Positions 174-5,098 of a stretch of 5,098 bases of DNA are shown piece after piece. Below the pieces are notes generated by a model. The model saw only the letters and a program-made list of their open reading frames with translations. It did not search any database and was not told where the DNA came from. The position numbers and the translations under genes are program-made. This stretch comes from a virus. Lineage: Duplodnaviria; Heunggongvirae; Uroviricota; Caudoviricetes. The DNA is taken from the IMG/VR virus record IMGVR_UViG_3300029074_000008, positions 1 to 5,098 of that record; one strand, written 5' to 3'. Each line of letters opens with the position of its first letter. The stretch's first letter is position 1.

Positions 174-200
174 AAGCCGCCTCATGGCGGCTTTTTTATT
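174..200 (+). terminator. Rho-independent terminator for the upstream gene
   Basis: Perfect 8-bp stem AAGCCGCC (174-181) / GGCGGCTT (186-193) with 4-nt loop TCAT, running into a T-tract TTTTTT (192-197) then ATT. Seen directly in sequence. Confidence 0.85.
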
Positions 201-209
201 GCCTATGCG

Positions 210-226
210 ATTACCTTATGGGTAAT
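210..226. promoter_or_regulatory. Operator-like palindrome, copy 1 (ATTACC-N5-GGTAAT), just upstream of the -35
   Basis: ATTACC (210-215), spacer TTATG, GGTAAT (221-226): perfect 6-bp inverted arms. The same half-sites recur at 272-288. It could alternatively act as a weak AT-rich hairpin before the T-run 226-232. Confidence 0.5.
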
Positions 227-244
227 TTTTTTAACTCATATCTA

Positions 245-273
245 TTGACATCAAACCAGATACGCATAATTAT
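245..273 (+). promoter_or_regulatory. Sigma70-type promoter (pL-like) driving the downstream + strand operon
   Basis: Perfect -35 consensus TTGACA at 245-250; 17-bp spacer; -10 candidate AATTAT at 268-273 (4/6 match, A2 and T6 present). An alternative -10, CATAAT at 265-270, has only a 14-bp spacer. It lies immediately after a terminator and before the first SD/ATG of the gene string. Confidence 0.55.
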
Positions 274-2624: not shown

Positions 2625-3562
2625 GCAACGACATCGCAAACATCAACGCACCAGTAGACACAGCAATCGCTGGAACTGCTGCAACTATTTTCAGCCCAGA
2701 CGGCTTGAACCAACTGATGAAATTCGCCGAGGTAATGGCGCAAAGCCGCGTAACGGTACCGGCGCACCTCGCCGGGAAACCAGCTGATTGCATGGCCGTG
2801 GCAATGCAGGCTGCGCAGTGGGGAATGAACCCGTTTGCCGTGGCTCAGAAAACCCATGTTGTGAACGGCACGCTAGGTTATGAAGCCCAATTAGTAAACG
2901 CAGTTATCTCAACGATGTCGCCAACAAAAGATCGCATCAACTACGAGTGGTTTGGGCCGTGGGAACGCGTGATCGGTAAGTTTGTTGAGAAAACATCCAA
3001 AAACGGCAATCCATATATCGCACCAGGCTGGACTCTAAAAGACGAAGAAGGCTGCGGTGTTCGCGTATGGGCAACCATGAAGGGCGAGGATCAACCTCGA
3101 GTGCTTGAGTTAATGCTGTCTCAAGCACAGGTAAGAAACTCCACACTTTGGGCCAGTGATCCGAAACAACAACTCGCATACCTTGCGACAAAACGCTGGT
3201 CTCGCCTGCACTGTCCTGACGTAATCATGGGCGTCTACACCCCAGACGAATTACAGGAAACGGCACCGCGCGTTGAGCGAGACATTACTCCGCAAACGAC
3301 AACTGCTGCGGGAATGAACAGTCTGATCAACGCTAAAACAGTGAAAAAGCCTGATGAGCAAACGCGTAAAGCGGATAGCCGTGATCCAGAAGAAATGCTG
3401 ATGGCCTTTACCAGCGCAGCGATGAATTACAGCACTGTCTCCGAACTGGATAAGGCTTACAAATACATTGCACAAAAACTTTCAGATGATGACGAACTGC
3501 TGGCAAAAGCCACCGACGTTTACAGCGTTCGTCGGGAAGAATTAAACGAAACATCTATGTAA
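2621..3562 (+). CDS. RecT/Red-beta-family single-strand annealing protein (313 aa)
   Basis: ATG 2621 overlaps the exonuclease stop (ATGA at 2621-2624); AGGA 2608-2611 upstream. Motif AMQAAQWGMNPFAVAQ (about 2816-2836) parallels lambda Bet ANQYGLNPWTKEIYAF (recalled from memory). Classic exonuclease-then-annealase gene order. The track's GTG 2594 start lacks an SD. Confidence 0.75.
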   Translation: MSNDIANINAPVDTAIAGTAATIFSPDGLNQLMKFAEVMAQSRVTVPAHLAGKPADCMAVAMQAAQWGMNPFAVAQKTHVVNGTLGYEAQLVNAVISTMSPTKDRINYEWFGPWERVIGKFVEKTSKNGNPYIAPGWTLKDEEGCGVRVWATMKGEDQPRVLELMLSQAQVRNSTLWASDPKQQLAYLATKRWSRLHCPDVIMGVYTPDELQETAPRVERDITPQTTTAAGMNSLINAKTVKKPDEQTRKADSRDPEEMLMAFTSAAMNYSTVSELDKAYKYIAQKLSDDDELLAKATDVYSVRREELNETSM

Positions 3563-3570
3563 CCACCACC

Positions 3571-3589
3571 GCGGCGCCACGCGCGCCGC
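3571..3589 (+). other. GC-rich perfect hairpin in the RecT/AlpA intergenic region (no U-tract)
   Basis: GCGGCGC (3571-3577), loop CACGC, GCGCCGC (3583-3589): 7 consecutive G:C pairs. Followed by ACTGCAACC, not a T-run, so not a canonical intrinsic terminator. Confidence 0.5.
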
Positions 3590-3611: not shown

Positions 3612-3860
3612 ATGAAAGGTGCATTAGGTAAGAAGGAACTCCTGGCGGTGGTGCCACTGTCATGGAGCACTATCGACCGTATGGAGCGCGCAGGTGAATT
3701 TCCTAAACGCTGGTATATCACTGACAAACGCTGCGCATGGAACCGTGACGAAGTTGAGCGTTGGCTTGATGAACGTCAGGCAGCAAGCCCGGCAGAGTTC
3801 CAGGGTAAAAAGCCTCCTGTTCAGCAACGTGTATATCGTCCTGTGAGCAACGCTGCATGA
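3612..3860 (+). CDS. AlpA/Xis-family winged-helix DNA-binding protein (82 aa)
   Basis: SD GAGAGG (3601-3606) 5 nt before ATG 3612. Translation ...ELLAVVPLSWSTIDRMERAGEFPKRWYITDKRCAWNRDEVERWL fits the AlpA/excisionase pattern (S-x-ST-I-x-R ... G-x-FP-K ... W-x-x-x-E-V-x-x-W) as I recall it. Confidence 0.75.
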   Translation: MKGALGKKELLAVVPLSWSTIDRMERAGEFPKRWYITDKRCAWNRDEVERWLDERQAASPAEFQGKKPPVQQRVYRPVSNAA

Positions 3861-3885
3861 GTGCGCTGCTAAGGCACTGGAGCAA

Positions 3886-3969
3886 ATGGTCAGGATGGTA
3901 CTTATTCCTGGCCTCTGTTTCAGCATGGCTTTATCTGCTGGCATTAATTTTCAGAGAGGGTTGGATTAA
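3886..3969 (+). CDS. Candidate 27-aa hydrophobic mini-ORF (speculative)
   Basis: ATG 3886 (GGAG 3878-3881 only about 4 nt upstream, so spacing is short); stop TAA 3967-3969. Translation MVRMVLIPGLCFSMALSAGINFQRGLD has a roughly 19-residue hydrophobic stretch. It is in the same frame as the next ORF, separated only by the TAA. Confidence 0.2.
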   Translation: MVRMVLIPGLCFSMALSAGINFQRGLD

Positions 3970-4269
3970 GTGAGAAAGTTAAGCCGACTTGAAAAATATC
4001 ACATGAACAAGGTTTCAATGCGCAGCCCTTCAAAGATTGTCGCCGTTACTCCTGCGGCGATAGAGATCGAAAAACGCGCGATTGAAAGAGAGAAAAAAGG
4101 GCAATTCCGCATTGCCGCTCACCTTTGGCTTCAGTGTATGGATGTTGCTTCTGGTGATGTTGAACGTGCAAGGATCGCGGTTCGCAGGGACCAATGTATC
4201 ACAAAAGGTAACGGCCTTCGCCGTGGCGACTATAGCGGCATAGGATGTTGTGGGGTGGTTTATGACTAA
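3970..4269 (+). CDS. Small hypothetical protein (99 aa from GTG 3970; 88 or 83 aa if it starts at ATG 4003 or ATG 4018); possibly a small regulator
   Basis: ORF from the track. The start is ambiguous: GTG 3970 directly follows an in-frame TAA. C-terminal CC pair ([10 protein letters not shown]). The segment FRIAAHLWLQCMDVASGDVERARIAVRRDQC vaguely recalls small prophage ANR-type regulators, but I cannot confirm this. Stop TAA 4267-4269 overlaps the MTase ATG 4262. Confidence 0.65.
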   Translation: MRKLSRLEKYHMNKVSMRSPSKIVAVTPAAIEIEKRAIEREKKGQFRIAAHLWLQCMDVASGDVERARIAVRRDQCITKGNGLRRGDYSGIGCCGVVYD

Positions 4270-4912
4270 GAAATACACACTAATCTATGCAGATCCACCC
4301 TGGGTATACCGGGACAAAGCCGCAGATGGTAATCGCGGTGCCAGTTTTAAATATCCGGTTATGAGTGTGATGGATATCTGCCGCCTTCCTGTGTGGGATT
4401 TGGCCGATGAAAACTGTCTGTTGGCCATGTGGTGGGTGCCAACACAACCACTCGAAGCGCTAAAAGTTGTTGAAGCCTGGGGATTCCGTCTGATGACCAT
4501 GAAGGGCTTCACGTGGATAAAATGTGGTAGTCGACAACCAGATAAACTGGTTATGGGTATGGGGCACATGACTCGCGCCAATAGTGAAGATTGCCTGTTT
4601 GCGGTAAAGGGAAAGCTACCTACGCGCATTAATGCAGGGATCGTTCAGTCATTTACCGCACCGCGGCTTGAGCATTCAAGAAAACCAGATATCGTTCGTG
4701 AAAAACTTGTGCAATTGTTAGGCGATGTTTCTCGCATTGAACTGTTCGCCCGCCAGACGTCTCATGGCTTCGATGTTTGGGGTAATCAGTGCGAAGACCC
4801 GGCAGTGCAACTACACCCTGGATACGCGTTGGATATTGGCGGATTAACAAATGCATTCAGCAATGCTCCGGTGTCACCAATAGACAACCAGGGGCGGGAG
4901 CGTGCAGCATGA
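4262..4912 (+). CDS. MT-A70-family N6-adenine DNA methyltransferase (216 aa), apparently orphan (no cognate nuclease in window)
   Basis: Motif IYADPPW (DPPW, catalytic motif IV; GAT at 4292-4294) near the N-terminus, and EHSRKPD near the C-terminal third. The ATG 4262 start is preferred over the track's GTG 4250. The stop TGA 4910-4912 overlaps the next ATG 4909. Confidence 0.85.
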
Positions 4913-5049
4913 ACCTATATCAACGCATCAATGGCGCTGACTGGTGCAATATCTTCGTCGTCGGCGATCTGCATGGGTGCTACACGCTGCTGATGAACGA
5001 ACTCGACAAAGTTTCATTCGACCCACTCAATTATTTACGACAAACATAA
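4909..5049 (+). pseudogene. Truncated lambda-type Ser/Thr protein phosphatase (metallophosphoesterase): only the N-terminal 46 codons
   Basis: [39 protein letters not shown] closely parallels the lambda PPase N-terminus (...[25 protein letters not shown]..., recalled) and includes the GDxHG metal-binding motif. Similarity stops after FDP (about 5025) and the frame ends at TAA 5047-5049. No continuation with the expected second motif (roughly ISVGDL-DRG) exists in any + frame of the remaining about 70 nt. Confidence 0.7.
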
Positions 5050-5098
5050 CCAATTGAGTGATAACAACTTTCTCATAACTTACTTCCACCGTACCGTT

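What the first reader, a model, noticed from the sequence alone, without database searches (positions are those of the whole stretch)
3886..4269. Hydrophobic 27-codon mini-ORF in frame with the following 99-aa ORF, separated by a single TAA
Seen in sequence: ATG 3886 opens a frame encoding a peptide with a TM-like hydrophobic stretch (MVLIPGLCFSMALSAGINF). It ends at TAA 3967-3969, and the very next codon (GTG 3970) is the track's start for the 99-aa ORF in the same frame. Inference, three alternatives: (a) an independent small membrane peptide, possibly a toxin or Kil-like; (b) a roughly 127-aa membrane-anchored protein split by a nonsense mutation; (c) coincidence, with the real downstream start at ATG 4003 or 4018.
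Basis: partly seen in the sequence, partly recalled or inferred. Interest (0 to 1): 0.4.

Follow-up and report, generated by a model that had tools for sequence, protein, structure and literature searches.

The report
Off-frame shadow of known mini-gene
The 27-codon "hydrophobic mini-ORF" is an out-of-frame read of a real, already annotated 38-amino-acid phage membrane-protein gene (phiV10 gp35 / epsilon15 gp32) whose stop overlaps the start of the next gene, so the finding is ordinary.

Summary
The interpretation picks the wrong frame. The window is a phiV10/epsilon15-like (Uetakevirus) prophage early operon. It is identical to phiV10p35 "membrane protein" and matches phrog_17484 end to end (E=2.6e-27). 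Its ATG overlaps the AlpA stop (ATGA) and its TGA overlaps the PerC start (GTGA). Its two ATGs come from conserved Trp codons, and the TAA comes from the Ile-Lys codons ATT-AAG. The TAA is a sense codon in the other clades. That produces 122-124-aa "long PerC" annotations, but the extension shows no purifying selection (pN/pS 1.28). PerC starts at GTG 3970, not at 4003 or 4018: codons 2-16 have pN/pS 0.20, relatives have ATG there, and a good Shine-Dalgarno (SD) site lies 9 nt upstream. The 38-aa protein is a single conserved helix. Its function is unknown.

The parts
3612..3860 (+). AlpA-family excisionase/regulator gene (82 aa), upstream partner in the translational coupling
   Evidence: PF05930, 24.2 bits against a cut-off of 21. 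phrog_66, E=2e-16. Annotated as AlpA in phiV10, epsilon15 and Tyrion. Strong SD site, -8.9 kcal/mol.
3857..3973 (+). The real gene: a 38-aa single-helix small membrane protein, MSALLRHWSKWSGWYLFLASVSAWLYLLALIFREGWIK (= phiV10 gp35 / epsilon15 gp32 family, phrog_17484)
   Evidence: Maps to PhiV10p35. The exact sequence is deposited as 'membrane protein [phage phiV10]'. phrog_17484, 1-38/38, E=2.6e-27. Intact in 204 of about 210 loci. pN/pS 0.135. AF2 helix over residues 3-34, pLDDT 78.
3857..3860 (+). ATGA overlap: start of the 38-aa gene and stop of alpA
   Evidence: Sequence. [A/G]TGA is present at this junction in all 204 loci with an intact 32- or 38-aa gene (the locator required this overlap). 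An AlpA-like ORF ends there in 200 of the 204. The SD site before 3857 is negligible (-1.9 kcal/mol), so initiation probably depends on coupling (inference).
3899..3952 (+). Codons 15-32 of the 38-aa gene: hydrophobic transmembrane core YLFLASVSAWLYLLALIF
   Evidence: KD 1.75-2.57 and zero charged residues in every family variant. Highest AF2 confidence falls in this segment.
3886..3969 (+).
   Evidence: pN/pS 1.71. Variable sites fall 19/9/4 on its codon positions 1/2/3. Within-clade SNPs are 0 synonymous and 6 nonsynonymous. No family match and no database entry. The ATGs at 3886 and 3895 are formed by AAA-TGG (K10-W11) and GGA-TGG (G13-W14) of the real gene. The TAA is formed by ATT-AAG (I37-K38).
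3954..3960 (+). SD site GAGAGGG for PerC, embedded in codons R33-E34-G35 of the 38-aa gene
   Evidence: -7.0 kcal/mol against the anti-SD sequence, with 9-nt spacing to GTG 3970. Only 7% of window positions reach -6 or better. A GAG/AGG core is kept in all aligned relatives, including the 32-aa forms where it is untranslated.
3970..3973 (+). GTGA overlap: PerC start and stop of the 38-aa gene
   Evidence: Sequence. A 4-nt [A/G]TGA overlap in all 170 loci of the 38-aa group: GTG in the E. coli clade, ATG elsewhere.
3970..4269 (+). PerC-family transcriptional activator gene, 99 aa, starting at GTG 3970
   Evidence: PF06069, 30.1 bits against a cut-off of 22.6. phrog_868, 1-99/99, E=5.7e-62. Codons 2-16 have pN/pS 0.20, against 1.2 and 2.6 in the other frames. 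The ATGs at 4003 and 4018 are absent in other clades.

Best explanation
It is a 38-aa single-pass or tail-anchored membrane protein, identical to phiV10 gp35 and homologous to epsilon15 gp32.

It sits in the early-left operon of a Uetakevirus-type prophage between alpA and perC, and it is translationally coupled to both. Ribosomes that finish AlpA at TGA 3858-3860 restart at the overlapping ATG 3857. Ribosomes that finish the 38-aa protein at TGA 3971-3973 restart at the overlapping GTG 3970, helped by the SD site GAGAGGG at 3954-3960, which lies inside the small gene's last codons.

Its ATGs are by-products of conserved Trp codons. Its hydrophobic look comes from T-rich helix codons as used in the E. 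coli clade. Its TAA comes from the synonymous choice ATT for Ile37 followed by AAG. It is not translated into a functional product, and PerC is not a split 127-aa protein.

Shown here: gene identity, frame-specific selection, the overlaps, the PerC start, and the helical, hydrophobic nature of the peptide. Inferred: actual coupling and reinitiation, membrane insertion (probably N-terminus in the cytoplasm, given the basic N-terminal segment), and any cellular role. My best guess for the role, held with low confidence, is a host-directed early-phase membrane factor.
For: - **Annotation mapping:** PhiV10p35, epsilon15 gp32, Tyrion gp33 and SPN1S_0036 all correspond to window 3857-3973.
- **Identity:** the exact peptide is in public databases as a phiV10 membrane protein, with a full-length match to phrog_17484 at E=2.6e-27.
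- **Conservation:** 204 loci have an intact 38- or 32-aa ORF starting with [A/G]TGA at the AlpA stop.
- **Selection by frame:** The result holds in non-TAA clades (0.134 vs 1.28) and in the 32-aa group (0.15 vs 2.37).
- **Hydrophobicity:** the hydrophobic core is conserved with no charged residue in any variant.
- **Structure:** AF2 predicts a single helix over residues 3-34.
- **PerC start:** SD site of -7.0 kcal/mol at 9 nt, codons 2-16 at pN/pS 0.20, and ATG at this position in other clades.
- **Chance model:** the coincidence is unremarkable once the real gene is given.
Against: - There is no direct expression data (Ribo-seq, proteomics) for either frame in this phage group, and no paper addresses the protein.
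This satisfies 'open frame conserved' literally. However, recoding gives 54-67% stop-free by chance per clade, and the clades are related.
- A GGAG at 3879-3882 lies 12 nt before ATG 3895 (-5.6 kcal/mol), so occasional spurious initiation there cannot be excluded.
- RefSeq PGAP annotation of E. coli genomes does not call the 38-aa gene.
Confidence: 0.93

Rival explanations
1. One reading: the 27-aa (or 24-aa, from ATG 3895) peptide is an independent small membrane peptide or toxin. It would be translated in the PerC frame, perhaps as an E. coli-clade-specific overlapping gene in addition to the 38-aa gene.
For: - The peptide is hydrophobic and uncharged in the E. coli clade (KD 1.72).
- The frame is open and has two ATGs.
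- A GGAG motif lies upstream.
Against: - All six E. coli-clade SNPs in the span change this peptide. One destroys ATG 3895, and others give G>D and G>R.
- pN/pS is 1.71.
- The GGAG sits 2-3 nt from ATG 3886 and 11-12 nt from ATG 3895, both outside the usual optimum. It is simply the Trp8-Ser9 codons, and it is absent in other clades.
- There is no database entry and no family match.
- Hydrophobicity arises in 4.5-9.6% of synonymous recodings of the real gene.
Confidence: 0.03
2. One reading: PerC was originally a membrane-anchored protein of about 124-127 aa starting near 3895, and it has been split in this prophage by a nonsense mutation (TAA 3967).
For: - The TAA is a sense codon in 86 of 170 related loci.
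- PAT1, BUCT711 and ST512-KPC3phi13.3 annotate 122-124-aa ORFs that run from the 3895-equivalent ATG through PerC.
Against: - In those clades the extension has pN/pS 1.28, while the overlapping 38-aa frame has 0.134.
- There the extension is charged rather than hydrophobic, for example FIPDRRFRLAVSAGGNFQRRLDP.
- The PerC profile phrog_868 aligns 1-99/99 to residues 29-127 of the hypothetical fusion, leaving the extension unmatched.
- In the 32-aa subgroup, 1-2-nt indels put PerC in frame 0, +1 or +2 relative to the upstream sequence.
- An ATG or GTG with an SD site is conserved at the 3970 position.
- The long annotations look like longest-ORF gene calls.
Confidence: 0.02
3. One reading: pure coincidence with nothing coding in 3886-3969, and PerC starting at ATG 4003 (the phiV10 annotation) or ATG 4018 (the RefSeq PGAP annotation).
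For: - phiV10 annotates the start at 4003. PGAP annotates 4018 in E. coli genomes.
- The 83-aa form is the most frequently deposited version.
Against: - The span is coding, but in another frame.
- Codons 2-16 of the 99-aa PerC are under purifying selection (pN/pS 0.20).
- ATG 4018 is CAG in all other clades, and ATG 4003 is CTG or CTT in the epsilon15 clade.
- There is no SD site before 4003 (+0.4 kcal/mol) and a weak one with 3-nt spacing before 4018.
- phrog_868 covers residues 1-99.
Confidence: 0.03
4. The 38-aa ORF is only a coupling spacer. Its translation delivers ribosomes from alpA to perC, and the peptide itself has no function.
For: - The gene has almost no SD site of its own (-1.9 kcal/mol) and overlaps both neighbours.
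- The PerC SD site lies inside it.
- The 32-aa variants lose the last six codons without loss of the locus.
Against: - Purifying selection acts at the amino-acid level (pN/pS 0.13-0.15 in three separate subgroups).
- An uncharged 18-residue hydrophobic core and a basic, Trp-rich N-terminus are conserved down to 41-47% identity, and in 39-aa relatives.
- A pure spacer would not need a conserved helix.
Confidence: 0.07

Closest known systems
phiV10 gp35 (PhiV10p35, YP_512290.1) / epsilon15 gp32 (NP_848240.1) / Tyrion gp33 / SPN1S_0036; PHROG family phrog_17484 'membrane protein'
   Same: The 38-aa sequence is identical to phiV10 gp35 and 82% identical to epsilon15 gp32. It has the same length, the same position between alpA and perC, and the same overlapping start and stop.
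   Different: Nothing differs for the 38-aa ORF. The family's function has never been tested, as far as the searched literature shows.
Translationally coupled overlapping gene pairs (ATGA-type stop/start overlaps, as in E. coli trpE-trpD and trpB-trpA; from my own knowledge)
   Same: There are 4-nt overlaps at both ends of the small gene, and an SD site for the downstream gene lies inside the upstream coding sequence. The whole operon uses such overlaps: ATGA at 1803, 2621, 3857 and 4909, GTGA at 3970, and ATGACTAA at 4262.
   Different: The downstream start is GTG in the E. coli clade and ATG in the other clades. Coupling itself is inferred from the sequence and was not measured.
   Same: Small size, a single hydrophobic helix, prophage origin, and expression from an early operon.
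   Different: The scans found no promoter-like site, terminator or antisense RNA signature next to it. It has no sequence similarity to any Pfam, NCBIfam or PADLOC family. It is embedded in an operon by translational coupling. Toxicity was not tested.
PerC family (PF06069) transcriptional activators (the downstream gene)
   Same: The domain match is above the Pfam cut-off (30.1 against 22.6 bits), with a full-length match to phrog_868.
   Different: It has about 34 extra N-terminal residues relative to the Pfam core. Public annotations disagree on its start (83, 88 or 99 aa).

Membership tests
phrog_17484 / epsilon15 gp32-like small membrane protein (for ORF 3857-3973) | Full-length sequence match to the family profile | tested here: met
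   1-38 of 38 profile positions, E=2.6e-27, 95.4 bits. Identical to the deposited phiV10 protein.
phrog_17484 / epsilon15 gp32-like small membrane protein (for ORF 3857-3973) | One conserved uncharged hydrophobic helix of about 18 residues | tested here: met
   KD 2.08 and no charged residue over residues 15-32, conserved in all variants. AF2 helix 3-34, pLDDT 78.
phrog_17484 / epsilon15 gp32-like small membrane protein (for ORF 3857-3973) | Synteny: lies between alpA and perC, with its start overlapping the alpA stop | tested here: met
   200 of 204 loci have AlpA upstream and 196 of 204 have PerC downstream. Annotations agree.
phrog_17484 / epsilon15 gp32-like small membrane protein (for ORF 3857-3973) | Actual membrane localisation | not testable with these tools
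   Needs fractionation or a fusion reporter.
   pN/pS 1.71. 0 synonymous and 6 nonsynonymous SNPs within the clade. Most variation falls at its codon position 1.
   No hit in PHROGs, Pfam, NCBIfam or PADLOC. The exact sequence is absent from the 15-billion-protein collection.
   GGAG at -5.6 kcal/mol, but with spacing of 2 nt (3886) or 11 nt (3895). The motif is not conserved outside the E. coli clade.
Split (pseudogenised) long PerC of about 127 aa | The extension is conserved as protein where the stop is absent | tested here: not met
   pN/pS 1.28 in 30 unique non-TAA sequences. The extension is charged and variable.
Split (pseudogenised) long PerC of about 127 aa | The frame relation between the extension and PerC is conserved | tested here: not met
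   In the 32-aa subgroup PerC is in frame 0, +1 or +2 relative to the small gene.
Type I toxin / Kil-like small toxic peptide | Own promoter plus a cis-antisense or adjacent regulatory RNA (type I), or demonstrated toxicity | tested here: not met
   No promoter-like site near 3857, and no terminator-like site on the + strand between 3600 and 4300. No Rfam match in the region. Toxicity cannot be tested here.
PerC family (PF06069), for ORF 3970-4269 | Pfam score above the gathering threshold | tested here: met
   30.1 bits against a cut-off of 22.6.

The most novel reading that the evidence does not exclude
It could, for example, bind a host inner-membrane protein (a protease, a division or envelope factor, or an entry route used by competing phages). 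Its obligatory translational coupling would tie PerC output to its own synthesis. Its function has never been studied, and RefSeq does not annotate it in more than 500 complete E. coli genomes.
Probability: 0.15. Interest if true: 0.45.

Novelty: already known. Interest (0 to 1): 0.12.

Why it matters
There are three practical lessons, and none is a discovery.

1. A hydrophobic-looking mini-ORF next to a gene can be the off-frame shadow of a real helix-coding small gene. Frame-specific substitution patterns settle such cases quickly.
2. The real 38-aa gene is annotated in phage records but is missing from RefSeq PGAP annotation of the E. coli genomes inspected. Prophages of this type are present in 558 of 5426 complete E. 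coli genomes.
3. The PerC homologue's start is annotated in three different ways (83, 88 and 99 aa), and some phage records carry a spurious 122-124-aa version. The evidence here supports the 99-aa form, which starts at the codon overlapping the small gene's stop.

The 38-aa protein is conserved and uncharacterised, so it is a modest candidate for functional study.

Tried and rejected
- **Query length limits:** I used alignments instead.
- **Family libraries:** Pfam, NCBIfam and PADLOC gave nothing for either small peptide.
- **RNA families:** Rfam at E<=1 gave only four sub-threshold chance hits, all outside the region.
- **Antisense ORF:** the 94-aa ORF at 3660-3944 on the minus strand is interrupted by stops in epsilon15 and Tyrion and its Met is not conserved, so I rejected it.
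- **Second hits:** apparent second copies of the small gene in L134, L149 and L157 turned out to be unrelated chance pattern matches.
- **Literature:** searches on phiV10, epsilon15, Uetakevirus and gp32 found no functional work on this protein. The vB_EcoP_ZX5 paper (PMC9782041) does not discuss it.
- **Structure alignment:** I did not run fold search, because a single helix gives meaningless matches.
- **Holin:** considered and rejected. The gene is too short and lies in the early recombination/excision operon, not in a lysis cassette.

Full report
**1. Observation**

An ORF at 3886..3969 encodes MVRMVLIPGLCFSMALSAGINFQRGLD. It ends at TAA 3967-3969 and is followed at once by GTG 3970, which opens a 99-aa ORF in the same frame. 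The ORF list also shows a 38-aa ORF at 3857..3973 in the next frame: MSALLRHWSKWSGWYLFLASVSAWLYLLALIFREGWIK. Its ATG overlaps the stop of the upstream 82-aa ORF (ATGA, 3857-3860). Its TGA overlaps GTG 3970 (GTGA, 3970-3973).

**2. Context**

The window is the early-left operon of a phiV10/epsilon15-like (Uetakevirus) prophage.

- Related DNA is present in 558 of 5426 complete E. coli genomes and in phages phiV10, epsilon15, SPN1S, Tyrion, PAT1, BUCT554 and several Klebsiella phages.
- The gene order is:
  - a promoter-like site at 245-273;
  - several small ORFs;
  - a PD-(D/E)XK exonuclease at 1803-2624;
  - RecT, ending at 3562;
  - AlpA at 3612-3860;
  - the 38-aa ORF;
  - PerC at 3970-4269;
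  - an MT-A70 methyltransferase at 4262-4912;
  - a truncated phosphatase.
- Successive genes overlap by ATGA, GTGA or ATGACTAA throughout.

**3. Which frame is the gene?**

*Annotation and identity.* phiV10 annotates PhiV10p35 "membrane protein" at the position equal to window 3857-3973. epsilon15 gp32, Tyrion gp33 and SPN1S_0036 are its counterparts. The window peptide is identical to the deposited phiV10 protein. It matches phrog_17484 over 1-38/38 at E=2.6e-27, while the 27-aa peptide matches nothing and is absent from the 15-billion-protein collection.

*Loci collected.* I gathered about 210 loci. An intact ORF with [A/G]TGA at the AlpA stop is present in 204. Of these, 170 are 38 aa (37 unique DNAs) and 34 are 32 aa (26 unique DNAs).

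*Selection by frame*:

|---|---|---|---|
| All 38-aa loci | 0.135 | 1.71 | 1.62 |
| Clades without the TAA | 0.134 | 1.28 | not computed |
| 32-aa subgroup | 0.15 | 2.37 | 2.22 |

Its six SNPs in the span are 5 synonymous and 1 nonsynonymous in the 38-aa frame.

*Hydrophobicity.* The hydrophobic core of the 38-aa protein has KD 1.75-2.57 and no charged residue in any variant. Elsewhere it reads, for example, MVFIPDRRFRLAVSAGGNF or MVSVPGRRIRLAVPAGGHF, with 2-4 charged residues.

**4.

- ATG 3886 is the junction of codons K10-W11 (AAA-TGG).
- ATG 3895 is the junction of G13-W14 (GGA-TGG).
- TAA 3967 is the junction of I37-K38 (ATT-AAG). Tyrion encodes the same Ile-Lys as ATC-AAA and therefore has CAA there.
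- The in-frame relation to PerC follows from the 4-nt overlap.

Synonymous recoding of the 38-aa peptide puts numbers on this. Its mean hydropathy is already 1.2-1.4. All three features appear together in 1.3-2.2% of recodings. That is unremarkable for a scan over many genes.

One honest nuance remains. But helix-coding sequence rarely produces stops in that frame (54-67% stop-free per clade under recoding, against 4-16% for the third frame), and the clades are related.

**5. The 'split PerC' idea**

The TAA is ACG, CCG, AAA or CAA in 86 of 170 loci. Three phage records annotate 122-124-aa ORFs that run from the 3895-equivalent ATG through PerC. Four results argue against a real long PerC:

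- The extension is not selected as protein.
- It is not hydrophobic in those clades.
- It is not covered by the PerC family profile. phrog_868 aligns 1-99/99 to residues 29-127 of a hypothetical fusion.
- In the 32-aa subgroup, 1-2-nt indels place PerC in any of the three frames relative to the upstream sequence.

**6. The PerC start**

Public annotations use 3970 (99 aa), 4003 (88 aa, phiV10) or 4018 (83 aa, PGAP). The evidence favours 3970:

- Codons 2-16 have pN/pS 0.20, against 1.17 and 2.59 in the other two frames.
- Other clades have ATG at this position. ATG 4018 is CAG elsewhere, and ATG 4003 is CTG or CTT in the epsilon15 clade.
- The SD site GAGAGGG (3954-3960) pairs at -7.0 kcal/mol with 9-nt spacing. 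There is no SD site before 4003 (+0.4 kcal/mol), and the one before 4018 is weak and poorly spaced.

**7. What the 38-aa protein is**

The family is narrow, with seven representatives at the 50%-identity level among 1.84 billion proteins. These include 39-aa relatives that keep the RHWxKWSG N-terminus, the hydrophobic core and the (E/D)GW(I/L)K tail. AF2 predicts one helix over residues 3-34, with mean pLDDT 78.

The 32-aa forms are colinear with the 38-aa forms. They carry TGA at codon 33 in place of AGA, and they keep the old tail as an untranslated spacer that still holds the PerC SD site. The last six residues are therefore dispensable, and part of their nucleotide conservation probably reflects the SD site.

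The basic N-terminus suggests an N-in, tail-anchored topology (inference). The gene has almost no SD site of its own (-1.9 kcal/mol), so its translation probably depends on reinitiation after AlpA (inference). Function is unknown. No defence, toxin or Pfam family matches, and no paper addresses it. I rank "a functional host-directed small membrane protein" above "a mere coupling spacer" because selection acts on the amino-acid sequence.

**8. Verdict**

The finding is ordinary. The useful by-products are the corrected PerC start and the fact that RefSeq E. coli annotations omit the 38-aa gene.

Noticed in passing
window 3857-3973 and 3970-4269; L004, L013, L211: RefSeq PGAP annotation of the E. 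coli genomes inspected leaves the 38-aa gene unannotated and starts PerC at 4018 (83 aa). phiV10 starts PerC at 4003 (88 aa). PAT1, BUCT711 and ST512-KPC3phi13.3 carry a spurious 122-124-aa PerC. The evidence here supports GTG 3970 (99 aa).
   Followed up: yes
L007, L013, L098-L129 (32-aa subgroup); alignment A4: A natural 32-aa variant of the small protein has TGA at codon 33 in place of AGA. The former tail (EVWIR*) persists as an untranslated spacer that still carries the PerC SD site. Indels of 1-2 nt there move PerC into different frames.
   Followed up: yes
window 4909-5098: A lambda-PP-like Ser/Thr phosphatase gene (219 aa and intact in APEC O1 and many other genomes) is cut after about codon 39. 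From about 5025 the window diverges, and the last 74-84 bases match only one complete E. coli genome, at 87% identity, in an unannotated stretch. This may be a deletion or rearrangement junction.
   Followed up: partly
window 3571-3589: A GC-rich hairpin (GCGGCGC-cacgc-GCGCCGC) with no T-run lies 9 nt after the RecT stop. The 53-nt stretch around it folds at -17.3 kcal/mol (z = -2.2). epsilon15 annotates the homologous position as 'stem-loop; transcriptional pausing'.
   Followed up: partly
window 1803, 2621, 3857, 3970, 4262, 4909: The whole operon is chained by stop/start overlaps (ATGA four times, GTGA once, ATGACTAA once). This suggests translational coupling across at least seven consecutive genes.
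   Followed up: no
window 174-273: An intrinsic terminator (stem 174-193 plus a T-run) follows the repressor-like gene's 3' end. It is followed by the only strong sigma-70-like promoter in the window (TTGACA, 17 nt, AATTAT; 245-273). This is presumably the early-left promoter that drives the operon.
   Followed up: no
P0002, P0010, P0012, P0013 (public protein collection): The 77-aa and 119-aa proteins clustered with the 38-aa protein are frameshifted AlpA variants that run into the small gene's frame. They are either sequencing errors or decaying prophages.
   Followed up: partly
L016 (K. pneumoniae ATCC 13883); L017 and L130 (Candidatus Erwinia dacicola): These are degraded copies. In L016 a deletion fuses the N-terminal part of the small gene to the middle of perC. 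In the Erwinia symbiont a 10-nt deletion breaks the small gene's frame.
   Followed up: partly
window 3660-3944 (- strand): A 94-aa antisense ORF overlaps alpA and the small gene. It is interrupted by stops in epsilon15 and Tyrion and its start is not conserved, so it is spurious.
   Followed up: yes
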